Below, piece by piece: positions 1 to 22,731 of a stretch of 22,731 bases of DNA. Position 1 is the first letter of the stretch. Every line of letters begins with the position of its first letter. The stretch lies in UHGV virus genome UHGV-1353574; one strand, written 5' to 3'. Source of the stretch: a virus. Below the pieces are notes generated by a model that saw only the letters and a program-made list of their open reading frames with translations, was not told the DNA's origin and did not search any database. A program made the translations under genes and the position numbers.

Positions 1-489
1 TGTTCCTACCCAACTGTCTTGCATCGGCCGACGCTGATCTACTGAGCGTGAAGGGTGACATTTATATCCCTGATAATCAGTACCGGAACCCGCAGGTGTG
101 TGACGGTATTCAGAAGAGTACTGCATGTCTGGCACATGAACTGGCATCAGGGACTTGCGGGGTGTGAAGTAGAACAACCCCCACTTTGGTGGTAGGTCTT
201 CAACCCTGATCACTTCCTGAGGGCAGACATAAAAGCGGTATGCGCCCATACCCGTCGTCGGATCCATGCGATGAGGCTTCTTCTTGTCGGTAAGGAAATC
301 AGAGCGAGACACCTTCACTTCCATCAGGATAGAGCAACCGCCGGAACGGAACCCGATGGCATCAGGTGATTCTTTGTTGTCAAACGAATTTGGCTCGATG
401 AAGACAGCGCCGCAGTTCATGCGACCGCGCAGGTAGTTGGCCGCGATCTCACATCCTTCGCGGTGTGACGGGATAAAGATTTTGCTCAT
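1..489 (-). CDS. hypothetical protein, first 163 codons only (gene continues beyond position 1); possible PD-(D/E)XK-type nuclease
   Basis: ATG at 489-487 on the minus strand; frame has no stop through to the window edge. Absent from the ORF track because no stop lies in the window. Translation begins MSKIFIPSHREGCEIAANYLRGRMNCGAVFIEPNSFDNKESPDAIGFRSGGCSILMEVKVSRSDF; the PD-x13-EVK spacing resembles the PD-(D/E)XK nuclease signature. Confidence 0.5.
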   Translation of the reverse strand, partial: MSKIFIPSHREGCEIAANYLRGRMNCGAVFIEPNSFDNKESPDAIGFRSGGCSILMEVKVSRSDFLTDKKKPHRMDPTTGMGAYRFYVCPQEVIRVEDLPPKWGLFYFTPRKSLMPVHVPDMQYSSEYRHTPAGSGTDYQGYKCHPSRSVDQRRPMQDSWVGT

Positions 490-1620: not shown

Positions 1621-4600
1621 TCAGATCTTAATCTGCATGTTTCCACCCAGGGACTGCTCATACTCGCTGTATGCACTTTCCCCGTTGTCTTGCGACCACT
1701 GGTCAGACTGTTGGGCACGAGCCAGGGTCATCAGGTTTGGTTCAGTCGGGTTGTAGCCCTTGGACTTCGCATCCCGGTACAGAGTCTGCAGGTACTGGTT
1801 GGCGCGGTCAATCTGAGCTTTGAACTCTCGATATGCCCCTTCAGTTGTGTTGCGGCGGAAGGTGATATCCCAGTCCACGTTCAGAGTCTGCCCATCACGG
1901 CTTGCATAGATCTGCCAATCCAGGTCGCGACCTTTTGGTGCGTTGTCTCGGATGGAGTCGGCGTATGCCGCAAGGTCGGCACCAGTCTTCTTCGCAGTAC
2001 TCGACTCTTTCTCCAGTCTCTCGGTTTCTTTGGATAGGATACCCAACATAAAATCATTAGTGCGGCGATCCGCCATGTCGTACCCGCGCCAAAGGACTGA
2101 ACCGTTGTTGTCAACAGAAATGTCGTCCAAAAATACTTGTTTCGGATTATACGACGTGCTTTTCAGAGTTTGCATATTCCGAGATATCATTTCCATATTA
2201 GAAGAAATTTCATCGATCACGGCCTGAACAATATCTTTCTTCAAAGTAAGTTCATATGTCTTCGGATTGTTCAGGGTACGACCTTTATTGGATACCATAG
2301 GCGTGATCGCCACTTTGCCTTTGTCGTAGTAATAGGTCACATTCGTGGTCAATACAGCACCATCATACTTCCCAGTTTTCGGGAAATTGACGCCAGACCA
2401 AGTGATGGACATACCGTTGACAGTCTCACCAAACACCATGGCGTTGCGTGGCATCTTCAGGGTTCCAGAGTTGACCAGATCATCGCCTTGGGCATTCAGG
2501 TCGATAGAACCATAGATGGTCCCGGTGATACGATCTTTCAGCATCAGGGTCTTGTCGCCTTTCTCTGGGATGATTTCCAGTGGGTGCTTGCCACGCGGAG
2601 GCTCTTTGATGAGTTCCAGCAGAGCAGTGTTCCCTGGCTTCACACGATTCAGGACAGCGTCGGACACTGTCAGAGTCCAGTTTGCGGTTTCCACATAACC
2701 CCAGCCCCGAGAACGGCGAATGGCTTTGATAGGATATGGAGCGCTTGTTGGCACTGCGCTAATTTCCCATTTGCCAGTGTACTGGGTCTTGGCAACCTCA
2801 AAGATGGACGCAATTACCGCATTGGCGACGTCACGGGCGCTACCTTTGGCCACGTTCTCCTCTTCAGCAATTTCGCTGAAAACTGAGTATTGAACGAAAC
2901 CAGCGAGGACGTTTGTGAAGTTGACAACGATAACCAACCCGCCTGCCGTCGTGTAACGACCAGCGCCCACACGACGGATGTTCTCACCAGGAAGAATAGA
3001 AGTGTCCAGCCCAACGTTGGTATCAATGATACCCAGAACACGAGCGATGAAACCGCTGTCGCGTAATTGATCAACACTGGTTGCACCCTCGGTCGAATCC
3101 GATGCGGATTTAGACACTTTGTTCAACTTGATAGAGACAAGGGTTTCCCCGTTGACACCGATGATATCCCATTCAGTACCCTGCTCGTTCGAGATGCGGG
3201 CAATCTTGCGCTTTGAATTGATGGCACCTTCGTAACGCCCGTTCTTGACTACAACAGAGGCTGTGGCAGCATCAGTAGCACTTGCTGCATTTGAAAAGTC
3301 TGGGTCAGAAATACTGATATCGACGTCACCGTTTTGAGAACGCATGCGAACACCGTTTTTGAATCGTTCCACGTTTACTTCTCGAGCACCAAGTCGTTTG
3401 GCATCAATAACAGCAGTTCCAGAACCGATAATATTGGCTGGGTTATTTCTGTCTGAACTGTTTTGAGAACCTTTCCAAAATTTTGTGGACGCCGTGGTGA
3501 AATCATTCAGGATACTGATAGGGACTTGTGGTAATTTCAACTGACGAGCAATGAAATCAGCACTTTGCCCACGCACAGGTTTCTCATTCATGTATGCGCC
3601 AACATACACGCCCGGCTCATTGTAGTGGGGAGCGATATTTGCCGTGTTCATGCGGCCTCTCTCCTTACCAGCCCATAACAACATGGGCTGATCCCCGTTT
3701 GAAGTTAATTTCCATCCGTTGGAATTATCAACAGAAGATGAAGAACCAGCCCCGGTTCCCAAGTTTGTTTTTCTGGAATCTTCTACGTTTAGATTGAACA
3801 ATTGTTTCCCAGATGAGTCGGAAGCAATAAATTCATATTTCTTGCCACTGCGGGTACTCGTGCTGTTAACTTTGATGTTTCCAGTGTATCTTCCTGGATT
3901 CGTTTTTTGCATGAAATTGGTAATTGCAGCAGAAGGGGTTTTCATCCCAGAAATGATTCTAGCTGTCTCGGGATCAGTGAAAGACACTACGAGTTTGCGC
4001 CCATCCATCACTGTGATATCATTTCCAGACACCGAAATATCCAAGTCTTCCATTTCAGAACGGAAATCAACACCAACAACAATGGTTTGACCAGTTCCAC
4101 CCACAACGCCATCAACGCTGTTCTGAACCGGAACGTCACCGACCTTGTCTGGATCATCCCAGGTGATACCCTGCATCTTCGGACCGTCGAATACCTGAGC
4201 CGGATCTTTACCCTTGCGGACCAGCCACACATAACCACGGTCAGGGACAGGCGCGTAGGTCAGGTCCATGACATTCAGTTTCTGTTTCAGGCCGGACTGG
4301 CGGATGATCTTAGGAATCAGGGTCATACCGCGATCCAGCGCTTTCTTAGAGAAGTTGACAGCAAAGCCATCGATGGTCTTGCCCAGAGGAGTCGCCATGA
4401 ATTGTTTGGTCGCTTCGATCATGGAAGCGATAACGCGCATTGGGTTCTTGAAGCGAGCGATGGCGTCAGGATAGACGGAGCCGCGCTTCTGGCCGATGAA
4501 AACCTGACGAACGCTCTTGCCCAGCCCCTGAGGGGTATAGAACTGAATACGGTATTCCTTTTCATCTTCGTCGATGAAGGTGAAGAACACATCGCCTGCG

Positions 4601-4698
4601 TTCTTCTTACCCATGGTCAGCTCATACGGAGCGGAGTTGAACGCTTCGTCCAACTGATCTCTTTCCTGCATGAACTGGAGGAAACTTAGCTTTGACAT
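1621..4698 (-). CDS. large hypothetical protein (1025 aa)
   Basis: Long uninterrupted ORF; ATG at 4698-4696 with GGGAGA upstream; stop TGA at 1621-1623. No Walker, polymerase, nuclease or repeat motif recognised by eye. Confidence 0.8.
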   Translation of the reverse strand: MSKLSFLQFMQERDQLDEAFNSAPYELTMGKKNAGDVFFTFIDEDEKEYRIQFYTPQGLGKSVRQVFIGQKRGSVYPDAIARFKNPMRVIASMIEATKQFMATPLGKTIDGFAVNFSKKALDRGMTLIPKIIRQSGLKQKLNVMDLTYAPVPDRGYVWLVRKGKDPAQVFDGPKMQGITWDDPDKVGDVPVQNSVDGVVGGTGQTIVVGVDFRSEMEDLDISVSGNDITVMDGRKLVVSFTDPETARIISGMKTPSAAITNFMQKTNPGRYTGNIKVNSTSTRSGKKYEFIASDSSGKQLFNLNVEDSRKTNLGTGAGSSSSVDNSNGWKLTSNGDQPMLLWAGKERGRMNTANIAPHYNEPGVYVGAYMNEKPVRGQSADFIARQLKLPQVPISILNDFTTASTKFWKGSQNSSDRNNPANIIGSGTAVIDAKRLGAREVNVERFKNGVRMRSQNGDVDISISDPDFSNAASATDAATASVVVKNGRYEGAINSKRKIARISNEQGTEWDIIGVNGETLVSIKLNKVSKSASDSTEGATSVDQLRDSGFIARVLGIIDTNVGLDTSILPGENIRRVGAGRYTTAGGLVIVVNFTNVLAGFVQYSVFSEIAEEENVAKGSARDVANAVIASIFEVAKTQYTGKWEISAVPTSAPYPIKAIRRSRGWGYVETANWTLTVSDAVLNRVKPGNTALLELIKEPPRGKHPLEIIPEKGDKTLMLKDRITGTIYGSIDLNAQGDDLVNSGTLKMPRNAMVFGETVNGMSITWSGVNFPKTGKYDGAVLTTNVTYYYDKGKVAITPMVSNKGRTLNNPKTYELTLKKDIVQAVIDEISSNMEMISRNMQTLKSTSYNPKQVFLDDISVDNNGSVLWRGYDMADRRTNDFMLGILSKETERLEKESSTAKKTGADLAAYADSIRDNAPKGRDLDWQIYASRDGQTLNVDWDITFRRNTTEGAYREFKAQIDRANQYLQTLYRDAKSKGYNPTEPNLMTLARAQQSDQWSQDNGESAYSEYEQSLGGNMQIKI

Positions 4699-9667: not shown

Positions 9668-10775
9668 CCAGTTTGTTCAGGCGTTGTTGGGCAGCATTAT
9701 AGAAGTGCTCTGCTAGTTTACAGACATTGTCGGGGCGCTGAATGTTGTTCCCGGCGCGGATATCCTTCTTCAGGACTTCCACCGCATCGGTCGCCACCAT
9801 CTCTTCGGTGACCTCAACCTTCTCGGCAGCAACAGTAATCGTCCGGTCGATGAAGTTATAGTCAATACACTTGCATCGCTTCATCGCATCACAGAACTTT
9901 TCATAATGCTTAGCATTGTCGCGGTTCTGTACAATAACCTTAACGATTTGCCCTTCAATACCCAAGCCTGTGTTCAACCATTCCGGGTCGATCCAATTGC
10001 CTTCTTCATCAGAGGACAACTTGGTGTAATCATATTCCACATAGCGGAACAGCGTCTGATTCTCGGCGTTTGGGATAAAGATCTCACCACCACGCATGTC
10101 GTCCACATAGAAGCCACGGTTGGTGCCGTCTTTGTAGTCTTCCCAGTTCAGGTGATACGGAGTCCCAATATATTGAATGTTACCTTCCATCGAACGGGTA
10201 TGGAAATGGCCCGTGTCGACCCTGGTAAACTTGGAAAGCAGCGCAACGTCGATCTGACCGTGATCACAAGTAGAAGACTGGTACATTTTGAACCCCGCCA
10301 GCTCCAGATGCGCAAAACAGTACTCGGCGTCTGTATCTTGTATCGCTTTAATAGACGCATCATAGTTCTCCTTGTTGATCCAAGGCAGCAGCAGAGTCTT
10401 GACACCCTCGATCATCACTTCGGTTGGTTCGCTGTAATAGCAGTACACATCCGGGTCGAGTTCGTTCAGGTAGGATGGCCAGTTGATGCGGTTGGACTCT
10501 TCCAGGGTGATGTCATGGTTGCCCACGATGCCATTCCACTTGATACCAGCCGCTTTCAGCGCTGGAGTTAATTCATCCTTCAGCCAGTCTTTGTCGCGCC
10601 CGTACATGAATTTGCGGACATCAAACATATCACCGAACTGCCAGACCTCTTTGATATCAGAGTCGGCAAGTTCAGGAATGAAATAATTGATGAGATAGTT
10701 CTTGATGAAGTCGCGAACGTATCGAGAACCATTACGGCTCCCGATATGCAGATCACCAATTTTAGCAATCGCCAT
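9660..10775 (-). CDS. 47: Mre11/SbcD-like nuclease (T4 gp47 homolog), 371 aa
   Basis: Calcineurin-like phosphoesterase motifs GDLHIG, GDMFD and GNHD. AAGGAG RBS; its start forms a TAATG overlap with the stop of the gp55-like gene. Confidence 0.9.
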   Translation of the reverse strand: MAIAKIGDLHIGSRNGSRYVRDFIKNYLINYFIPELADSDIKEVWQFGDMFDVRKFMYGRDKDWLKDELTPALKAAGIKWNGIVGNHDITLEESNRINWPSYLNELDPDVYCYYSEPTEVMIEGVKTLLLPWINKENYDASIKAIQDTDAEYCFAHLELAGFKMYQSSTCDHGQIDVALLSKFTRVDTGHFHTRSMEGNIQYIGTPYHLNWEDYKDGTNRGFYVDDMRGGEIFIPNAENQTLFRYVEYDYTKLSSDEEGNWIDPEWLNTGLGIEGQIVKVIVQNRDNAKHYEKFCDAMKRCKCIDYNFIDRTITVAAEKVEVTEEMVATDAVEVLKKDIRAGNNIQRPDNVCKLAEHFYNAAQQRLNKLDA

Positions 10776-11503
10776 TATTCTGTTTCTCCTTCGGTTTCAT
10801 CTAGTCCGAATTGGGTTTTGCCGAAGTCCTGATCTGAATTGTCTTCGGCCTGCGCTGTTACCGTATTCTTAGCCTGCGCCATGTATTGAAGTATGCCTTT
10901 CGCAATCTTTTTATTCGATTCTGCGAGACGAGCTGCCTCCACCTTCTCTCGCTCCTTCTGCCTTTGAGCGTCCTTTTTGTTCTCAAAGTTGCCGATACGT
11001 TCACGGAAGTCCATGCCAATTCCTGTAGCATCAACAAAGACCTCTTGTTGGAAGTCGGGATCGTCTGCCAGGCCTGCGAACCCACCCGCCTCTTCAAATG
11101 AGCGCAATTTAATGTACGTGTGCTCTTCTTCGATGTTCAGTTTACGAGCAAATGATCGATCAGCACACATGGTCACCCAAGAGAAGAAGTTGATCTTCCC
11201 TTTCTTTCCAATGTGTTCGACGTCAAATGTGTGGAGGTAGCGCAGGATATTGACTATTGCTTCAGAGACCATGTCTTCACGGAAGGGATAGTCGCGATAG
11301 TTGTAGCGGGTGCTCATCTTGGTGATGATGCGCTGGACCTGTAGAGCAACATAGTTGGGGATCTTTGGAAGCCTGGTGCCTTCAGCCAGAGCCTTCTTAC
11401 GAGCAGGGATCCAATCACGAAGGATACTGATGACACGCTCGTTATCTTCGTCTGTGAAATATTTGACGACATTCTCCCCTCTGTCCACGAAGTTCATTCC
11501 CAT
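10775..11503 (-). CDS. 55: late-transcription sigma factor, T4 gp55-like (242 aa)
   Basis: Position directly upstream of 47/46 as in T4. The segment YNYRDYPFREDMVSEAIVNILRYLHTFDVEH...FFSWVTMCADRSFARK resembles, from memory, the T4 gp55 core. Has a C-terminal charged extension. TATAAATA boxes in the window imply a gp55-type factor is encoded by this phage. Confidence 0.6.
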   Translation of the reverse strand: MGMNFVDRGENVVKYFTDEDNERVISILRDWIPARKKALAEGTRLPKIPNYVALQVQRIITKMSTRYNYRDYPFREDMVSEAIVNILRYLHTFDVEHIGKKGKINFFSWVTMCADRSFARKLNIEEEHTYIKLRSFEEAGGFAGLADDPDFQQEVFVDATGIGMDFRERIGNFENKKDAQRQKEREKVEAARLAESNKKIAKGILQYMAQAKNTVTAQAEDNSDQDFGKTQFGLDETEGETE

Positions 11504-16263: not shown

Positions 16264-17130
16264 TTATTGGAAATCGCCAACATACATGTTCAGCTTGTCG
16301 TCCCAATTCAGAACGACACGGATCGTTCCAGTATCTTCTGGGAAGGTCAGTTTGTCACACATGGCGCGATTAACATAAGTCCCGCTCTGGTTGACGTTGT
16401 AGTCCTTGCCTTGCATGATACCAAAACGCTTGAAGTCGCGAGTGACCATCATGTTCAGAGTTGTCCAAGGGATTGTATCGCGCAGGGCTTTGCACAGGAC
16501 GATCTTGCCATCCGACCTGAACGACACAAACAGCTCGTTGGCGACACGACGGCGAGTAGGCGGTTCAAGTTCACGCAGGGAAATGAATTGTGAATTCTTT
16601 ACCTTTTCTGCCAGCGCCTGTACTTCTGCTGGATCCGGCTTGAACGGCTCCACTGAAGAGTCAGACTTCATCACAACGTCACCCTTGCGCTTCTCAACCA
16701 ATTGCTCCACAGCCTTTTGACTCACGGGAGGGAGGTATTTGGACTTAGGAACAACCGCTGGCTTGATGACAGGGCTTGCATCTGGTTTCGCCTTTGGAGT
16801 ACTCCGAGCCGCACGCAGCTTTTCCTGGGCTTGTAGAATGCGCTCTTGACGAGAAAGCGGAGCCTTTGGGGTGATCTTCGTACTGAAGTCAGAAACGCCG
16901 ACCCAGTCACCCTGGTCGTTGCGCTTGGCGACCAGGGTCAGTTTGTGGATGATACCCTGAAGTTTGCTCTCACGTAAGTTGTCGGCATACCAGAACTTCG
17001 CGCCCATCTCGAACTTCTCGGCGAAGATCACGCGAGCGTCTTCGTGTACCAACATAACTTTGGCTGCGTTGGGGGCAAAAGCCTTATTCTTTTCGATAAT
17101 CGCCGCAGCGATTGTTTTGGTCAGGAGCAT
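16264..17130 (-). CDS. hypothetical protein (288 aa) with a Pro/Lys/Ala-rich central linker
   Basis: Track start 17133 is GTG; the adjacent ATG at 17130 has GAAGGAA upstream. Central segment KAKPDASPVIKPAVVPKSKYLPPVSQK looks like a disordered linker between two domains. Confidence 0.6.
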   Translation of the reverse strand: MLLTKTIAAAIIEKNKAFAPNAAKVMLVHEDARVIFAEKFEMGAKFWYADNLRESKLQGIIHKLTLVAKRNDQGDWVGVSDFSTKITPKAPLSRQERILQAQEKLRAARSTPKAKPDASPVIKPAVVPKSKYLPPVSQKAVEQLVEKRKGDVVMKSDSSVEPFKPDPAEVQALAEKVKNSQFISLRELEPPTRRRVANELFVSFRSDGKIVLCKALRDTIPWTTLNMMVTRDFKRFGIMQGKDYNVNQSGTYVNRAMCDKLTFPEDTGTIRVVLNWDDKLNMYVGDFQ

Positions 17131-17169
17131 CACAGTGTATTCCTTCAGTTCACAATGTAGGGCTAAATT

Positions 17170-17496
17170 TTAACCCGAAACTTTATTTTGAAATCCGACA
17201 AAGTCCTGGGCAATCCCCCGACAATACATCAGGTCTTTCTTCGTTTGTGGACTGTTATCAGCCGCAGTCAGCATCATGGGAAGATCCAGCGCATTCTCTA
17301 TCTGATCAACACTGAACAGATCAAGGCGCTTCAGCTCCCCCTCGAAGTCGGACAGGAGGATAGATGTGTCTTTGTCATCTGGGTGGAACTGCTGATACGT
17401 CTCCATCCATGCCACACATGTGTTCAGTTTGGACGGTGGCGCGGCGTTTACACACCCGGCTATCAGTACCAACAAGAGCAGGATTTTACATTTCAT
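17170..17496 (-). CDS. putative lipoprotein (108 aa)
   Basis: ATG at 17496 with AAGGAG 8 nt upstream, overlapping the upstream stop (ATGA). N-terminus MKCKILLLLVLIAGC carries a lipobox (LIAG-C) after a hydrophobic signal peptide. Confidence 0.65.
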   Translation of the reverse strand: MKCKILLLLVLIAGCVNAAPPSKLNTCVAWMETYQQFHPDDKDTSILLSDFEGELKRLDLFSVDQIENALDLPMMLTAADNSPQTKKDLMYCRGIAQDFVGFQNKVSG

Positions 17497-18710
17497 CACT
17501 CGTTCTCCTTCATCATATTGTCGCAGTCAACACGAGTCTGCTGGAGTTCGCGCGACATGCGGGGATCATCAAGGTTCACGCTCAGATTCGTGGCCAGGTC
17601 TTTCAGACCGTTCTGAACACGATCCTCAAAATAATAATCGTTCTCAACCAGCCAGGCTCTGAGACCAAGAGCGCGGGTGCGCCATTCCTTCTTCAGGACG
17701 CGATCAGAGGTCTGCGTGGCGCTGTATTCGAATACTTTGACGCACTGGTTGCCATCGTTGATGAGGTTCAGGTGGCGGCGACCAACCTGCACACCCTTCT
17801 GTAATGCCGGAGAAGGGAGCGAACGGCACTGTCTGACTGTCATTCGGCCTTGGGTGCCCATTCGGCCAGTCATGATTAAATCGCCAGCCTCCATGCCTCC
17901 ACGGTTAAATTCGTCGTCATTGAGGTAGCCTTTGAGGTTATAGGCTCCCTGTTTGTAACGGTTGAACTCAATTCCGGCATTGACGACAGCAGTGGAGACG
18001 TTGCCTGTGTTCCAGAGTTCAGCGAAGTTCTCTATGGAACCAGACTTGTCGATGGCAACCGCCTGGGAGAACCCAGCACAATAGGAAAGGTCGGACCACA
18101 GTTTATCACCTGTGGAGTTCAGCTTGGCAGCGGCGGGTAATGCCAGACCAGCCAGCACAACCCCGAGGATTAAACGTTTCATGGCGATTCTCCTTATTTC
18201 ATTGGATGAAATGATAGGCGGCTCACCATGTTGAGTAAAGGGATTCAATAAACTATCGTATTCAGAAACGGGTATCACTGACCGTTCTGTATCGCACACC
18301 CTGAAACTGTTTAGCGAGTTTAACAATTCCATCGCTGGCAAATCAACTTTGTAGACCTTCATGCGCTGTTTGCCGTCCATGTTCAACGCAGCGACAAATC
18401 GGTGAGAACCGTCAACAACGTAATTGTCAGAAGACACCCAAACTCGACCCATAGGTTTCTTATTTCTGATCTGCTTCATAATCTTCCAGACCTTCATTTT
18501 ATTGATTTCGTTCTGGGTAAGACGAAGCATTTTGATGGGCACTTGCACAGCATCTATGGACACGCCGTTGTCTTCAAGATATTTGTGAAAATCTTCTTGT
18601 TTGTCGGCATCGATTTGCGGCATAGAAGAACGAGAAAGCCCGAGGTTCCCAACAGGAATCCTCAGGCCGTTAATGATGTTCAACCAGTCAATAAAAGATG
18701 TAAGGAACAT
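17496..18710 (-). CDS. ParB-like N-terminal domain fused in frame to a signal-peptide-led C-terminal domain (404 aa); possible internal second start at 18182
   Basis: ATG 18710 with GAGGTG RBS. N-terminal 176 aa carry a ParB/Srx-like motif (YVVDGSHRFVAA). At 18182 an in-frame ATG with AAGGAG 8 nt upstream begins MKRLILGVVLAGLALPAAAK, a signal-peptide-like segment. No stop separates the two parts. Confidence 0.6.
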   Translation of the reverse strand: MFLTSFIDWLNIINGLRIPVGNLGLSRSSMPQIDADKQEDFHKYLEDNGVSIDAVQVPIKMLRLTQNEINKMKVWKIMKQIRNKKPMGRVWVSSDNYVVDGSHRFVAALNMDGKQRMKVYKVDLPAMELLNSLNSFRVCDTERSVIPVSEYDSLLNPFTQHGEPPIISSNEIRRIAMKRLILGVVLAGLALPAAAKLNSTGDKLWSDLSYCAGFSQAVAIDKSGSIENFAELWNTGNVSTAVVNAGIEFNRYKQGAYNLKGYLNDDEFNRGGMEAGDLIMTGRMGTQGRMTVRQCRSLPSPALQKGVQVGRRHLNLINDGNQCVKVFEYSATQTSDRVLKKEWRTRALGLRAWLVENDYYFEDRVQNGLKDLATNLSVNLDDPRMSRELQQTRVDCDNMMKENE

Positions 18711-18718
18711 GACACACC

Positions 18719-18738
18719 TCGGGATATAGGGTTATCCC
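18719..18738 (-). other. perfect 6-bp hairpin directly upstream of the RBS of the 17496..18710 gene
   Basis: GGGATA-TAGGGT-TATCCC; no U-tract; abuts the GAGGTG Shine-Dalgarno, so possibly a translational or processing element. Confidence 0.3.
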
Positions 18739-18742
18739 TTAG

Positions 18743-18901
18743 TTAGCGCATCCATCGATCCTTTCTCTCTTTCTCCTTGCGTTCGCGACGTTTCTGATCG
18801 GATCGGAATAACCAATAGAAGAAGTTCCCACCCAAGATGAAAACCACCGCGATTATTACTAGGACACCCTTCACAATTTCCCAAACCAATTCTTTATCCA
18901 A
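18743..18901 (-). CDS. possible small single-pass membrane protein with a strongly basic tail (about 43-52 aa); start uncertain, no ATG
   Basis: Track ORF 18743..18934 starts with TTG inside the upstream gene. In-frame TTG at 18901 (GAGG 6 nt upstream) or GTG at 18874. Hydrophobic segment VKGVLVIIAVVFILGGNFFYWLF followed by RSDQKRRERKEKERKDRWMR. Lies in a 192-bp gap between genes. Confidence 0.3.
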   Translation of the reverse strand: MDKELVWEIVKGVLVIIAVVFILGGNFFYWLFRSDQKRRERKEKERKDRWMR

Positions 18902-18902
18902 A

Positions 18903-19562
18903 TTATACCTCGTCTTCTTCAGGTCCACCGTCAATCAGGATACGAGCGGTGTCGAAAGTTTCCCCGCCCGTGTTCAACAGCTTGGTTAGATCATCAAGAG
19001 TACCGACAGGACCAAGATCAGCCTGGCGGAGAACGAACTCGAGAAGCCCGTAGAGCGCTGATTGGAATCGGCTGTTGTCGATATCGTTCTTTATTACCAT
19101 CAGGCGTAAGATGTTCTCTGACTGAGTATGGCCAACACACGCCTTGTCTCTGATCATCTCCTTGATAGAACTTCTCTCGGATGGTGTCATAACGTACCCC
19201 CGACAGAGATCAAGAACTCTTCTTGCATGGTCTTGACCGGGTGGTGGTTGCGGGTTTTCGAACATGAAGCCCCAGCCACCGTCGGCGACGTTGCCAAAGG
19301 TCTTGACGCCAAAGGACTTCGTCCCGTTGGAGCAGGAATAGATGTCCAGGACGTATGGGCTACCCTGATTGTCGATCCCACGATTCACGTCGTCTGATAC
19401 GCAGCGCTCAATCATCTTCCCGTTCTTATACAGAACGAGGTCTTGGCCATACGCCTTGAAAGCATAAACACCGTTGGTAGACACTCCGGTGATGACAGGA
19501 GGGGCGGAAACAGCAGCAAAGGAAGCGCCCAGCAGGGCAACAGCGAGGATTAACTTTTTCAT
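18903..19562 (-). CDS. exported hypothetical protein (219 aa)
   Basis: Track start 19583 is TTG; ATG at 19562 gives N-terminus MKKLILAVALLGASFAAVSA, a typical Sec signal peptide resembling the internal MKRLILGVVLAGLALPAAA of the preceding gene. Mature part contains several Cys. Confidence 0.65.
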   Translation of the reverse strand: MKKLILAVALLGASFAAVSAPPVITGVSTNGVYAFKAYGQDLVLYKNGKMIERCVSDDVNRGIDNQGSPYVLDIYSCSNGTKSFGVKTFGNVADGGWGFMFENPQPPPGQDHARRVLDLCRGYVMTPSERSSIKEMIRDKACVGHTQSENILRLMVIKNDIDNSRFQSALYGLLEFVLRQADLGPVGTLDDLTKLLNTGGETFDTARILIDGGPEEDEV

Positions 19563-19586
19563 GATATAGTCTCTTGGTTTCAAATG

Positions 19587-19608
19587 GGCGGGGTATGATT
19601 ACCCCGCC
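19587..19608 (-). repeat. stem-loop repeat copy A (GGCGGGGTA-loop-TACCCCGCC)
   Basis: Perfect 9-bp stem with 4-nt loop (TGAT on plus strand), between the 19615..20121 gene stop and the 19562 start. A near-identical 22-nt element occurs at 20146-20167. Confidence 0.5.
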
Positions 19609-19614
19609 GTGGGT

Positions 19615-20121
19615 TTATAGGGTAACAAGTGATACGGTAAAAACCATCGTCCCGTCTGTTGCCATTTTTCTTGAAACTGGTATGACGCGAGGCTGGCAGA
19701 ATATCCATTCTTTCTCCATGGACGCCAAGTCCAGCATATCCATTTCTGATTCATCGCCTTTGTTCACAAATTTTTCTAGAGAACCATAGACATTAAGCCC
19801 CTCCGGGATTCTGTTTCGATGTTTGTAACAAATGCGGGCAACAGCTTGGGTTCCGTACGATTTAGAAAATTTTTTGGCCACATGCTTCAGTTCACTGAAG
19901 CTAAGGCAAGAATCCCATGTCTGGAACATGTCGCCTCGTTCAAACATCATCCCTAAACGCGCAACGTCCTCTTTAGGCAACCCGCGATAAAGTGTGGTCG
20001 TCTGTGGTTCGCGCAATTCTTGCACCAGATCACGGACGGCAGGGGAAACAGTACCGGGGCGCATGATGTGGGACTTATCATGGACGAGGTAAAATAAATC
20101 TTGAATTTGTTGATCGGTCAT
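19615..20121 (-). CDS. hypothetical protein (168 aa)
   Basis: Track start 20142 is TTG; ATG at 20121 with AGGAA RBS and the recurrent ACTATACC-ATG context. Contains LYRG ... S-x-S ... ESE residues that could be read as an R-S-E ADP-ribosyltransferase-like pattern, but this is weak. Confidence 0.6.
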   Translation of the reverse strand: MTDQQIQDLFYLVHDKSHIMRPGTVSPAVRDLVQELREPQTTTLYRGLPKEDVARLGMMFERGDMFQTWDSCLSFSELKHVAKKFSKSYGTQAVARICYKHRNRIPEGLNVYGSLEKFVNKGDESEMDMLDLASMEKEWIFCQPRVIPVSRKMATDGTMVFTVSLVTL

Positions 20122-20145
20122 GGTATAGTTCCTGCATTTCAAATA

Positions 20146-20167
20146 GACGGGGTAATCATACCCCGCC
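20146..20167 (-). repeat. stem-loop repeat copy B
   Basis: CGGGGTA-ATCA-TACCCCG on the plus strand; its reverse complement TGGGCGGGGTATGATTACCCCG matches copy A (19585-19606) over about 22 nt. Lies between the 20181..20420 gene stop and the 20121 start. Confidence 0.5.
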
Positions 20168-20180
20168 CAAAGTTATAGAA

Positions 20181-20420
20181 TTAACTGATGTGCTTCAGAA
20201 GAGCGAAGAGGATCACGGCCTTGGCCTTTACCTTTCCTACGATGCCTGTCTCGACATCAACTTCTTCAGCAACCCACTCTTTGCCTTTCTTGCTGATGAT
20301 CACGTCACGGCGCTGTGCGTAGACTTCTTTGGTCGCATACACACGACGGAACCCTTTAGCGCGGAGCAATCCCCAATTACGATCAATTTCTACTGAGGTT
20401 TCTACCATTTTGTTCTTCAT
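20181..20420 (-). CDS. hypothetical protein (79 aa)
   Basis: ATG 20420-20418 preceded by TTGAAA-N8-TATATC; stop TAA 20181-20183. Confidence 0.55.
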   Translation of the reverse strand: MKNKMVETSVEIDRNWGLLRAKGFRRVYATKEVYAQRRDVIISKKGKEWVAEEVDVETGIVGKVKAKAVILFALLKHIS

Positions 20421-20867: not shown

Positions 20868-21473
20868 CTACTTCTCCCAAAGAAAGGCGGGTTGCCCCGC
20901 CCGTTGGATTAGATTTTGATTTTCTTTCTCTGTCAGTTCGGCAGTGACCTTGTACTTCACGCCATCCACTTCAACTTCCATGGTGGACTCTTCCAGGTCG
21001 AGGTCGGTGAACCAGCCGTGGCCAGCAACGATACCATACACCACTTTAGACAGTGTCTTGTTCAGGGCACGGACTTCGGTGATGGCCGCCTTGGCAGCAG
21101 CGTCGATCCAGTTTTCGATCAGCTGTTTCTGTAAGGCTTCAGGCACGGCAGTGATCATAGGAGACTTCACGAATGCTTCGTACTCTTTCAGAGCATTGGC
21201 GATGAACAAGTCACCAGCATTGAGTTTCTTGTTCTCTGCGATCTTCTTCTGTACTGCCGCGATGCTCGGTAGTGAAGACGCCCCGGCGATCTTCACGTTC
21301 AGCTCACGGCTCATGTAGAAGTCGGTAGACTCTTTGGTCTCAGTCTTCGGTGAGAAGCCGTAATCGCGGATGCCGTAGGAGGACAGGAACTCGGCCGCCT
21401 CAGCGCCGTACTGTACTGCCAGGCCTTTGGCGTTACCCTTACCAACCAGGGCGTCTCGATAGAACTTCAGCAC
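20868..21473 (-). CDS. C-terminal segment (about 201 codons) of a large gene that appears split by a +1 frame change; alternatively a separate gene with a GTG start
   Basis: Track ORF starts with GTG at 21473; the first ATG is at residue 54. The upstream ORF ends 35 nt into this frame, and the two frames can be joined at an A-run (minus strand CTGAAAAGG, plus strand tttt at 21487-21490). Confidence 0.5.
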   Translation of the reverse strand: MLKFYRDALVGKGNAKGLAVQYGAEAAEFLSSYGIRDYGFSPKTETKESTDFYMSRELNVKIAGASSLPSIAAVQKKIAENKKLNAGDLFIANALKEYEAFVKSPMITAVPEALQKQLIENWIDAAAKAAITEVRALNKTLSKVVYGIVAGHGWFTDLDLEESTMEVEVDGVKYKVTAELTEKENQNLIQRAGQPAFLWEK

Positions 21474-22731
21474 CTTCTGCTTGCCTTTTCAGGGCTTCCA
21501 GACGGACATTATCCGCAAAGAACTGAGCAGCACTGATGTTCTTGACCATGGCGCGGTTGACCAGCGGTACGCTTTCCAGGTTCAGGACAAACACTTCTGG
21601 ACCACCAAACACGTGGACGCCCATTTCGATCAGCTTATGCACGACTTCGATATCAGCCTTGAACGGCAGAGTCTTCACGTTAATGATACCGTCTTTGACG
21701 ATGGTGTAGTTGCGCCACTGGAAAGTATCCAGTTCTTCAGGCAGGCCAAACTTCTTCTGTGCGAATTCAGGCACAGCCACAGTACCGTGTTGAATTGTAC
21801 GCACACTGATGTTCGGGCGCTCGGAGTTATAGACCAAATCACTGATTGGCACAACACCCAGATCGTTGGTAGGTTCGAACGTCGGGTTCCACTCTTCGTG
21901 CTCTGCCAGCTTGAGAGCCAGGGCTTTACGCTCTTCTTTGGACTGAGCATTCGCGATCTGTTCTGCCAGCTTGTCTTCGGTGTCGTCGGTTTTCTGCACA
22001 GTACCGCGCCCGATGCTCTTGTAGGAGAACATCGGATGCTTGGTAGCAACAGGCACACCAGCTTCAGCCAGGTACGTCAGCACATCAACGACGGTGGTCG
22101 CATCTTCAGCTGGAACCAGGTCATAGTCAATACCGTCAACGCCGCGCAGCTGGTCGTCAACAATCGCCTGTACCAGATCGTTCTTGATGTTGGAGTAGTC
22201 CTGCTTGGTGAAGCAGTTGCTGTACTGTTTGATGAAGCGAACGTCGCCCGTCTTCTTCAGCGCAGCCCAAACCAGATCTGCGTCCATAGTGTGTACACCG
22301 TAGAACGCCAGCACATATGCCGCCTGGATGTCCGTCAGGCTATCCATCTGGTCGATCATGTTAGGGTTTACAACCCACAGCTTGGTGACGCTCTCAGGGA
22401 TGCTCACGTGGCCGATAGGATGGTCTTCATCCGGCTGTACCGCCAGAACAGTTGCTACGCCGTTTTCAACATAGATGGCGTGGGTGTATAGCAGAGGCAC
22501 ATCAACAACCACCTTCGGCACTGATGACTTCAGCACGTTTTCCAGTTCGGTCTGGTATTCGGTCTGACCTTCGGCAAACACGTGAGTAGCACCAGAGAGT
22601 TCGGCCATCTGCGCCAGCAGTTCTCGGTTACAGTACCAGCCATATTCGATGAAAGTAATGTTATCGAAAGCAAATGGCAGGGTCTCAGCAACCAGTAGAA
22701 TTTCGTTGGTACGCCAGCAGTTGTCATACCC
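21439..22731 (-). CDS. hypothetical protein, internal/3' part (5' end beyond window end); upstream part of the split large gene
   Basis: Track ORF 21439..22608 starts at the first ATG, but the same frame stays open to position 22731 (...GYDNCWRTNEILLVAETLPFAFDNITFIEYGWYCNRELLAQ-MAELSG...), so the gene begins outside the window. Stop TAA 21439-21441. No motif recognised. Confidence 0.6.
   Translation of the reverse strand, partial: GYDNCWRTNEILLVAETLPFAFDNITFIEYGWYCNRELLAQMAELSGATHVFAEGQTEYQTELENVLKSSVPKVVVDVPLLYTHAIYVENGVATVLAVQPDEDHPIGHVSIPESVTKLWVVNPNMIDQMDSLTDIQAAYVLAFYGVHTMDADLVWAALKKTGDVRFIKQYSNCFTKQDYSNIKNDLVQAIVDDQLRGVDGIDYDLVPAEDATTVVDVLTYLAEAGVPVATKHPMFSYKSIGRGTVQKTDDTEDKLAEQIANAQSKEERKALALKLAEHEEWNPTFEPTNDLGVVPISDLVYNSERPNISVRTIQHGTVAVPEFAQKKFGLPEELDTFQWRNYTIVKDGIINVKTLPFKADIEVVHKLIEMGVHVFGGPEVFVLNLESVPLVNRAMVKNISAAQFFADNVRLEALKRQAEGAEVLSRRPGW

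What the first reader, a model, noticed from the sequence alone, without database searches (positions are those of the whole stretch)
17496..18710. ParB-like domain fused in frame to a signal-peptide-led domain, with an internal RBS and ATG
The 404-codon ORF starts with a cytoplasmic-looking ParB/Srx-like domain (VDGSHRFVAA motif). At codon 177 it contains a textbook signal peptide (MKRLILGVVLAGLALPAAA-K) preceded by AAGGAG at ideal spacing, as if a second gene started there, but there is no stop codon between the parts. Either the locus makes two products (full-length membrane-anchored and a shorter exported form), or two genes fused by loss of a stop, or the hydrophobic segment is a signal anchor tethering a ParB-like nuclease domain to the membrane. 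The signal peptide and its 5' nucleotide context (GAGGATTAA..TTTCAT on the plus strand at 18165-18182 and 19545-19562) are near-duplicated at the start of the next exported gene (18903..19562), suggesting a duplicated export cassette.
Basis: partly seen in the sequence, partly recalled or inferred. Interest (0 to 1): 0.7.

Follow-up and report, generated by a model that had tools for sequence, protein, structure and literature searches.

The report
Two phage genes joined by frameshift
The apparent fusion of a ParB-like domain to an exported domain is really two ordinary neighbouring phage genes, run together in this one sequence by a single missing base that is most likely a sequencing error.

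Summary
The 404-codon ORF (17496..18710, minus strand) is real. So are its VDGSHRFVAA motif, the internal AAGGAG-N7-ATG and the signal peptide at codon 177. It is not a natural fusion.

The window comes from an Ackermannviridae (ViI-like) phage. Every relative examined has two genes here:
- a 149-aa ParB/Sulfiredoxin-fold protein that ends in a stop codon;
- after an ~80-nt spacer with a conserved promoter-like site and RBS, a 228-aa signal-peptide protein whose stop overlaps the start of a 108-aa lipoprotein gene.

The window lacks one base of a homopolymer (TT instead of TTT on the coding strand, 18325-18326). This shifts the first gene into the frame of the second and skips its stop. About 104 homologues of the first protein are 117-219 aa and about 30 of the second are 162-230 aa; none is fused.

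Three more private homopolymer indels lie within 3.2 kb. One fuses the "next exported gene" from two genes, and two break a conserved vWFA gene. That pattern points to sequencing or assembly error.

The ParB/Srx call holds at fold level. The "duplicated export cassette" is only signal-peptide similarity. The public "i-spanin" label for the second gene is untested and questionable.

The parts
18262..18710 (-). Gene 1: ParB/Sulfiredoxin-fold protein, 149 aa in relatives. In this window a 1-nt deletion disrupts its frame, so the ORF runs past its own stop (TGA, 18264..18262, now out of frame).
   Evidence: The orthologous 450-nt CDS is annotated in all relatives. tblastn places aa 1-~128 in one frame and aa 130-149 at 18324..18265 in another at 100% identity. 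The AF2 model has pLDDT 83.9. The top 43 Foldseek PDB hits are all ParB/Srx fold. DGSHR and LTQ-E are invariant in 33 homologues.
18325..18326 (-). Frameshift site: a homopolymer of 2 (TT on the coding strand, AA on +) where all close relatives have 3. This single missing base creates the 404-codon ORF.
   Evidence: Alignments. Site-by-site check in 8 close relatives: AAA in all, AA in the window. The window-variant 30-mer is absent from the viral, genome and metagenome collections, while the wild-type 30-mer is found in 5 IMG/VR contigs.
18183..18261 (-). Intergenic spacer, read as codons ~150-176 of the false fusion. It holds a sigma-70-like site, TTTACT (18239..18234) - 17 nt - TATCAT (18216..18211), and the Shine-Dalgarno AAGGAG (18195..18190).
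   Evidence: This is the only minus-strand promoter-like hit in 17000-20300. The block is near-identical in phages whose flanking coding DNA is ~80% identical. The hexamers are kept in 6 of 7 phages, including Klebsiella phage May where the spacer has diverged. The block stays attached to gene 2 in CBA120 and A221, where an extra gene is inserted upstream of it.
17496..18182 (-). Gene 2: 228-aa exported all-alpha protein of unknown function, labelled 'putative i-spanin' in some public annotations. The signal peptide is codons 1-19 (18182..18126), with a conserved A-x-A before K20.
   Evidence: A separate 687-nt CDS in all relatives. phrog_4260, unknown function, E 6e-155. 29 of 30 homologues are 224-230 aa, one is 162. 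Only 10 representatives were found among 1.84 billion proteins. A17 (>=90% of sequences)/A19 (invariant) and Cys35 and Cys220 invariant, Cys119 and Cys147 in >=90% of sequences. AF2 pLDDT 80.7, nine helices. No PDB fold match. In BFVD it matches only its own family.
17170..17496 (-). Gene 3: 108-aa lipoprotein (lipobox LIAGC, Cys15). Its ATG overlaps the stop of gene 2 by one base (TGATG). Labelled 'Rz-like spanin / o-spanin' in public annotations.
   Evidence: ORF and sequence. phrog_3843 'Rz-like spanin', E 1.5e-54. Annotated adjacent to gene 2 in all relatives.
18903..19562 (-). The 'next exported gene' is a second false fusion. In relatives it is a 124-aa signal-peptide protein (phrog_5474) plus an overlapping 95-aa protein (phrog_4458, start 19190). 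Here they are joined by an extra base in the run at 19255-19258 (TTTT on + against TTT).

Best explanation
The 404-codon ORF is two adjacent, independently expressed phage genes read as one. This window lacks one base of a three-base homopolymer near the 3' end of the first gene.

Gene 1 encodes a 149-aa cytoplasmic ParB/Sulfiredoxin-fold protein. Its LIMEstone1 orthologue is recorded as a confirmed virion protein.

Gene 2 has its own promoter-like site, Shine-Dalgarno sequence and ATG. It encodes a 228-aa pre-protein with a Sec-type signal peptide, so its helical, cysteine-containing body goes to the periplasm. It is translationally coupled to the next gene, which encodes an outer-membrane-type lipoprotein.

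The deletion moves ribosomes from frame 1 into the frame of gene 2 about 22 codons before gene 1's stop. By chance that frame is open across the 80-nt spacer.

Three more private one-base homopolymer changes within 3.2 kb also break conserved ORFs. The most likely cause is therefore sequencing or assembly error, not biology.

Shown: the deletion, its uniqueness, the two-gene state of all relatives, and the ParB/Srx fold. Inferred: error rather than mutation, signal-peptide cleavage, promoter activity, and the gene 2-lipoprotein partnership.
For: (1) Alignment with 11 relatives at 80-99% identity shows TTT, TTC or CTG where the window has TT, and a stop after ...RTVSDxR(F/Y/H) in every one.
(2) The C-terminal 20 aa of gene 1 are still encoded at 100% identity out of frame. 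The invariant or near-invariant R142, T143 and S145 are lost from the window's frame.
(3) 50 sequence hits and 104 profile hits to gene 1 are 117-219 aa. 30 hits to gene 2 are 162-230 aa. None is fused. PHROGs hold the two as separate families.
(4) Public annotations of spread-sampled records among 284 matching phages list two CDSs.
(5) CBA120 and A221 carry an extra gene between the two. In A221 it is a 290-aa ORF that I judge, by eye only, to look like a homing endonuclease; in CBA120 it is a 53-aa remnant.
(6) The spacer carries a conserved TTTACT-17-TATCAT site and AAGGAG.
(7) The window has four private, frame-breaking homopolymer indels at 18325, 19255, 20920 and 21486. All 8 closest relatives agree with each other against the window. 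The last two split a conserved 2202-nt vWFA gene.
(8) Private substitutions are not enriched in that region.
(9) The window-variant 30-mer is absent from three public collections, and the 404-aa product is not on record.
Against: No reads are available, so error cannot be told apart from a genuine recent mutation. Runs of only 3-4 bases are not the worst context for homopolymer errors. All four indels lie in 3.2 kb of a 22.7-kb window, which could also reflect a dispensable region decaying in a laboratory stock. Signal-peptide cleavage and promoter activity rest on sequence rules and conservation only.
Confidence: 0.8

Rival explanations
1. The single-base deletion and the three other indels are genuine recent mutations in this phage isolate. 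Gene 1 is then a fresh pseudogene or altered protein: ParB/Srx core, then 49 unrelated residues, then the signal peptide acting as an internal anchor. Gene 2 is still made normally from its own promoter and RBS.
For: Homopolymer slippage is also the commonest natural frameshift. The sequence is otherwise a bona fide distinct genome, with private substitutions spread evenly. The downstream start signals are intact.
Against: Four independent frame-breaking changes within 3.2 kb, two of them in a conserved 733-aa vWFA protein, are unlikely in a viable phage. There is no decay after the shift, since the downstream reading is 100% identical. No other public sequence shares the variant.
Confidence: 0.16
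2. One reading: a natural, selected fusion or dual-product locus. It would make a full-length membrane-anchored ParB-like nuclease plus a shorter exported form from the internal start.
For: The open frame, internal RBS and ATG, and hydrophobic segment exist in this sequence.
Against: No homologue of either half is fused. All relatives have a stop and a spacer. The linker is out-of-frame gene 1 plus non-coding DNA conserved as a promoter-like block. The conserved C-terminal motif of the ParB/Srx protein is destroyed. Other genes are inserted between the two halves in CBA120 and A221.
Confidence: 0.02
3. Programmed ribosomal frameshifting or recoding links the two genes in the family, and the window shows the 'fused' product directly.
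For: In Maynard-, CECAV_050- and LIMEstone1-type phages the two genes share a frame and are separated by a single stop. The spacer is open in the frame of gene 2.
Against: There is no slippery heptamer at the site (GGAATTTGTT). In the closest relatives the two genes are in different frames with several stops between them. An open 26-codon spacer is expected by chance about 30% of the time (my own estimate). The spacer is conserved as a nucleotide block with promoter-like hexamers, not codon-wise.
Confidence: 0.01

Closest known systems
ParB/Sulfiredoxin superfamily, stand-alone N-terminal-domain proteins (ParB N-domain of pNOB8 5k5d, Noc, Srx, SbnI/SerK, Atu1540); orthologue LIMEstone1 ORF101
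   Same: Gene 1 has the same fold over ~90 residues (Foldseek probability 1.0, TM ~0.45). It has the invariant DGSHR motif at the position I recall as the phosphate-binding GxxR/DGxHR motif, plus an invariant LTQ-E strand. Sources name its homologues 'ParB/Sulfiredoxin domain-containing' or 'ParB N-terminal domain-containing'.
   Different: It is only 149 aa, with no helix-turn-helix or dimerisation domain, so it is not a partition ParB. There is no Pfam ParBc hit and no sequence-level PDB hit. It has an extra N-terminal ~55 residues and a conserved C-terminal RTVSD motif. Its activity is unknown. The LIMEstone1 orthologue is recorded as a confirmed structural protein.
Two-component spanins (lambda Rz/Rz1; the Marshall pair listed by Kongari et al. 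2018, PMC6139136)
   Same: Gene 2 has an N-terminal hydrophobic segment and is followed, with overlapping stop and start, by a lipoprotein gene with a good lipobox. The orthologous pair in phage Marshall was counted as an i-/o-spanin pair, a singleton family with the longest periplasmic length. The lipoprotein falls in phrog_3843, 'Rz-like spanin'.
   Different: The same paper lists CBA120, Vi01, SFP10, Maynard, AG3, SJ2 and SJ3 as spanin-less. The hydrophobic segment is 16 residues with a conserved A-x-A. Its 19-residue Kyte-Doolittle mean is 1.84 against 2.63 for Rz, so it looks cleavable rather than an anchor. The predicted fold is nine short helices, not long coiled coils. There is no similarity to any other spanin family. 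The lipoprotein is 4.6% Pro against 18.3% in Rz1. No holin or endolysin is annotated nearby.
Frameshift artefacts that create false gene fusions in phage assemblies
   Same: A one-base homopolymer length change relative to all near-identical genomes. Several such changes occur close together, and each breaks or merges conserved ORFs. Kongari et al. name sequencing errors as one reason spanin genes could not be identified in some phage genomes.
   Different: Nothing distinguishes this case from that class, except that error as against mutation cannot be proved without reads.

Membership tests
ParB/Sulfiredoxin fold superfamily | ParB/Srx alpha/beta fold | tested here: met
   AF2 model pLDDT 83.9, pTM 0.77. 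The top 43 Foldseek PDB hits are all ParB/Srx-fold proteins, best 5k5d at E 1.4e-3 and probability 1.0.
ParB/Sulfiredoxin fold superfamily | Conserved phosphate-binding motif (GxxR / DGxHR type) after the central strand | tested here: met
   D100-G101-S102-H103-R104 are invariant in 33 homologues down to 39% identity. That this position is equivalent to the ParB/Srx motif rests on my knowledge of the family. I did not superpose the residues.
ParB/Sulfiredoxin fold superfamily | Hit to the curated profile (Pfam PF02195 ParBc) above threshold | tested here: not met
   No Pfam hit even at E <= 10. There are only weak PHROG ParB-like hits, phrog_1033 at E 1.5e-3 and phrog_26754 at E 9.7e-3. One of 104 homologues carries a precomputed PF02195 hit.
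ParB/Sulfiredoxin fold superfamily | Nucleotide binding or hydrolysis, or nuclease activity | not testable with these tools
   Needs biochemistry.
ParABS partition ParB | Helix-turn-helix DNA-binding domain and C-terminal dimerisation domain | tested here: not met
   The protein is 149 aa. Foldseek alignments cover only ~90 columns of the N-terminal domain of 190-270-aa ParB and Noc chains.
Two-component spanin (i-spanin) | Uncleaved N-terminal transmembrane anchor (type II) | tested here: inconclusive
   The apolar run is 16 residues with Pro at -6, and A-x-A at -3/-1 is conserved in the 13 homologues. The 19-residue Kyte-Doolittle mean is 1.84 against 2.63 for lambda Rz. This looks like a cleavable signal peptide. 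No dedicated predictor was available.
Two-component spanin (i-spanin) | Periplasmic domain dominated by long coiled-coil helices | tested here: not met
   AF2 predicts nine helices of 5-32 residues. The LIMEstone1 record notes a 'coiled coil' prediction, so this is model-dependent.
Two-component spanin (i-spanin) | Adjacent, overlapping or embedded outer-membrane lipoprotein gene (o-spanin) | tested here: met
   The 108-aa ORF at 17170..17496 has the lipobox LIAGC and its start overlaps the stop of gene 2. This is conserved in relatives.
Two-component spanin (i-spanin) | Homology to an experimentally validated spanin, or a lysis-defect phenotype | tested here: not met
   phrog_4260 is 'unknown function'. 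There are no Pfam or NCBIfam hits. BFVD matches only its own family. Kongari et al. list most ViI-like phages as spanin-less. The phenotype is not testable here.
Natural multidomain fusion protein | The continuous ORF is conserved in orthologues | tested here: not met
   None of ~104 + 30 homologues is fused. A stop and a spacer are present in all 11 aligned relatives.

The most novel reading that the evidence does not exclude
The one-base deletion is genuine. This phage then makes, alongside the normal exported 228-aa protein from the internal promoter and RBS, a chimeric protein in which a C-terminally damaged ParB/Srx domain is tethered to the inner membrane by the downstream gene's signal peptide acting as an internal anchor.

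Separately, and independent of the fusion, the conserved pair of a secreted helical protein and a lipoprotein could be a non-canonical outer-membrane-acting module. It might act in lysis or in superinfection exclusion. The family it belongs to is listed by the reference spanin survey as mostly spanin-less.
Probability: 0.12. Interest if true: 0.3.

Novelty: not a real feature. Interest (0 to 1): 0.07.

Why it matters
Mainly as a caution. A textbook "gene start inside an ORF" was in this case the signature of a frameshifted assembly, not of a new domain architecture. The same window holds three more such breaks, so ORF-based readings of 18.3-21.5 kb should not be trusted without read support.

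The underlying genes are known but uncharacterised members of a well-sampled phage family. Two questions remain modestly open:
- What does a small, virion-associated ParB/Srx-fold protein do? It is shared by ViI-like phages, several Vibrio phages and Delftia phage PhiW-14.
- Is the exported protein plus lipoprotein pair really a spanin?

Tried and rejected
- Pfam, NCBIfam and PDB sequence searches gave nothing usable for gene 1, gene 2, the lipoprotein or the neighbouring genes.
- Fold searches for the 228-aa model found no meaningful PDB match (best E 0.94, TM ~0.2). In BFVD it matched only its own family. The afdb50 library was not available.
- I tried to trace the window's source. The 404-aa product is not on record. 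The window-variant 30-mer is absent from the viral, genome and metagenome collections. There is no match in E. coli complete genomes.
- I considered a low-quality or recombinant patch as the cause of the indel cluster. Private substitutions are not enriched at 18-22 kb, so the region is not generally aberrant.
- I considered a programmed frameshift. There is no slippery site, and frame relations differ among relatives.
- I considered a duplicated export cassette. The only similarity is in the signal peptide. The shuffled-DNA null is not the right null for two signal peptides that both start MK(R/K)LIL.
- I could not compute the model's shape, because coordinates are not exposed. 'Not coiled-coil' therefore rests on helix lengths only.

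Full report
**What is in the sequence**

The window is a segment of an Ackermannviridae (ViI-like; Agtrevirus/Kuttervirus-type) phage genome. Its best matches are Enterobacter phage fGh-Ecl02 and Escherichia phages AV101, ZQ1, YX22, A221, RPN242, PC3 and LHE287, at 97-99% identity. About 280 related records exist in the phage collection.

The VVDGSHRFVAAL motif is there too. So is the internal AAGGAG (18195..18190), 7 nt upstream of an ATG at 18182, which opens MKRLILGVVLAGLALPAAA-K at codon 177.

**Why there is no stop codon**

In every relative examined the same DNA carries two annotated genes:
- a 450-nt gene (149 aa);
- after a spacer of about 80 nt, a 687-nt gene (228 aa). Its stop overlaps the start of a 327-nt lipoprotein gene.

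This holds in fGh-Ecl02, Maynard, CECAV_050, AV101, LIMEstone1, CBA120, May, phiMAM1, ZQ1, YX22, RPN242, PC3, LHE287 and AG3.

Alignment shows that the window lacks one base of a three-base homopolymer. It reads GGAA-TT-GTT where the relatives have GGAA-TTT-GTT, or an equivalent full codon (TTC or CTG), on the coding strand. The run is at 18325-18326. A site-by-site check gives AAA (+ strand) in all eight close relatives and AA in the window.

The deletion shifts translation about 22 codons before gene 1's stop (TGA, 18264..18262) into the frame of gene 2. That frame happens to be open across the spacer. The last 20 residues of the 149-aa protein are still encoded at 100% identity in the abandoned frame (18324..18265). 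Residues ~128-176 of the "fusion" are therefore out-of-frame and non-coding sequence, not a linker.

**Orthologue test**

- A sequence search with the restored 149-aa protein returned 50 homologues of 149-163 aa.
- A profile search returned 104 homologues of 117-219 aa.
- A search with the 228-aa protein returned 30 homologues. All are 224-230 aa except one truncated at 162.
- None is fused.
- PHROGs hold the two as separate families, phrog_2859 and phrog_4260.
- The conserved residues R142, T143 and S145 at the end of the first protein (R142 and S145 invariant, T143 in >=90% of sequences) are lost in the window's frame.
- In CBA120 a small gene (orf136) sits between the two genes. In A221 a 290-aa ORF occupies the same place, and the CBA120 gene is a remnant of it. 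I judged the A221 ORF to look like a homing endonuclease by eye only and did not test it.

**The spacer is regulatory DNA**

The ~85 nt upstream of the second ATG are almost identical in phages whose flanking coding DNA is only ~80% identical.

The block contains TTTACT-17 nt-TATCAT (18239..18211). This is the only minus-strand sigma-70-like hit in 3.3 kb. Both hexamers and the spacing are kept in 6 of 7 phages. That includes Klebsiella phage May, where the 17-nt spacer has diverged, and CBA120, where the block has stayed with the downstream gene.

Promoter activity is inferred, not shown. It does explain why a "second gene seems to start there": one does.

**Error or mutation?**

Against both AV101 and fGh-Ecl02, the window has five private one-base homopolymer changes:
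- 937, which lies between genes;
- 18325;
- 19255;
- 20920;
- 21486.

The last four fall within 3.2 kb, and each alters a conserved ORF.
- The changes at 21486 and 20920 split the conserved 2202-nt vWFA-domain gene and alter its end.

All eight close relatives agree with one another against the window at all four sites. Private substitutions are not enriched in this stretch. The window-variant 30-mer is absent from the IMG/VR, GTDB-genome and JGI-metagenome collections, while the wild-type version is present. The 404-aa product is not on record.

Four fresh frame-breaking changes in a viable lytic phage are unlikely, so I rate sequencing or assembly error at about 0.8 and genuine recent mutation at about 0.16. 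Only the reads can decide. Either way the fused architecture is not a conserved biological feature.

**What the genes are**

*Gene 1.* The AlphaFold2 model, built from a 33-sequence alignment, has pLDDT 83.9. Its top 43 Foldseek PDB matches are all ParB/Sulfiredoxin-fold proteins: pNOB8 ParB-N, Noc, Srx, ParB CTPase domains, Atu1540, SbnI/SerK and PadC. The best has E 1.4e-3, probability 1.0 and TM ~0.45 over ~90 columns.

DGSHR and an LTQ-E strand are invariant. Weak PHROG ParB-like hits and the sources' own names agree. Pfam ParBc does not hit, and there is no sequence-level PDB hit.

The protein is too short to be a partition ParB, and its activity is unknown. The LIMEstone1 orthologue (ORF101) is recorded as a confirmed structural protein.

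*Gene 2.* This family is very small: 10 representatives among 1.84 billion proteins. Its features are:
- an N-terminal segment with two positive charges, a 16-residue apolar run with Pro at -6, and an A-x-A motif (A19 invariant, A17 in >=90%) before residue 20;
- four conserved cysteines: C35 and C220 invariant, C119 and C147 in >=90%;
- a predicted all-alpha body of nine helices;
- no fold match outside its own family.

My reading is a Sec-exported, probably cleaved, disulfide-bonded periplasmic protein, made together with the downstream lipoprotein (lipobox LIAGC). This is inference.

**The "i-spanin / Rz-like spanin" labels**

These labels appear in some records and in PMC10892097, and they rest on gene arrangement only. 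Kongari et al. (PMC6139136) accepted the Marshall pair as a singleton spanin family. The same paper lists CBA120, Vi01, SFP10, Maynard, AG3, SJ2 and SJ3 as spanin-less.

Compared with lambda Rz and Rz1, the hydrophobic segment is shorter and weaker, and the lipoprotein is proline-poor. I therefore treat "spanin" as an untested label. An arrangement like a spanin is not the same as membership of the family.

**The "duplicated export cassette"**

The two signal peptides share 9 of 19 residues and nothing beyond them. At DNA level the identity is ATGAAA plus TTAATCCTC, which encodes MK-LIL. The lipoprotein start shows the same ATGAAA...AATCCT pattern. This is what similar signal peptides written in the same codon dialect look like. 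It is not evidence for a duplicated module.

**Verdict**

The interpretation as a fusion or dual-product locus is not supported. The feature comes from a private single-base homopolymer deletion, probably an error, that joins two known but uncharacterised genes. Interest is low.

Noticed in passing
window 19255-19258 (ORF 18903..19583, minus strand): This is a second false fusion. An extra base (TTTT against TTT on +) joins a 124-aa signal-peptide protein (phrog_5474) to the overlapping 95-aa protein (phrog_4458). They are separate genes in all relatives.
   Followed up: yes
window 20920-20923 and 21486-21489: Two more private +1 homopolymer changes break the conserved 2202-nt vWFA-domain gene. 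It appears here as ORFs 21439..22608 and 20868..21473, with a frame switch at ~21487. One further private extra A lies between genes at 937.
   Followed up: yes
window 18183-18261 and the same block in L001, L002, L006, L007, L008: The intergenic block upstream of the 228-aa gene is more conserved than the flanking coding DNA. It keeps TTTACT-17-TATCAT even where the spacer diverges, so it is a candidate promoter.
   Followed up: partly
L018 (phage A221) 3278-4150; L007 (CBA120) 1728-1889: A 290-aa ORF is inserted between the ParB-like gene and the exported-protein gene in A221. CBA120 orf136 is a 53-aa remnant matching its two ends. I thought the A221 ORF looked like a homing endonuclease (repeated NPMYGKK/HHSYGNK-type motifs), but that is by eye only and no profile search was run.
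   Followed up: partly
Homologues of window 18262..18710 (P0129, P0103, P0106, P0110): The small ParB/Srx-fold protein is shared with Delftia phage PhiW-14 and several ~150-kb Vibrio phages. From memory, ViI-like phages and PhiW-14 both carry hypermodified thymidine in their DNA. A link between the protein and that DNA chemistry is only a lead. The LIMEstone1 orthologue is recorded as a confirmed virion protein.
   Followed up: no
window 17170..18182; PMC6139136: The reference spanin survey counts the Marshall orthologues of this pair as a spanin but lists CBA120, Vi01, SFP10, Maynard and AG3, which have the same pair, as spanin-less. The conserved A-x-A suggests the 'i-spanin' is a cleaved periplasmic protein.
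   Followed up: partly
window 18744..18902 (minus strand): A 52-aa single-transmembrane protein with a highly charged C-terminal tail (phrog_14464 'membrane protein'). It has a sub-threshold Pfam hit to a holin family (Phage_holin_2_4, E 0.04).
   Followed up: no
window ~3748-4110, inside ORF 1621..4698 (1025 aa): The window carries 357 extra bases (272 + 85 nt, 119 codons, in frame) in a large hypothetical protein, relative to AV101 and fGh-Ecl02 (906-913 aa).
   Followed up: no
window 10775..11503 (minus strand): The gp55-like late sigma factor is 242 aa, against 263 aa in relatives. It has a shorter, divergent C-terminal tail (50 nt fewer) that ends right at the gp47-like start.
   Followed up: partly
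window 1-113: The first ~113 bases do not align with the closest relatives, which match from position 113/114 onward. This may be a mosaic boundary.
   Followed up: no
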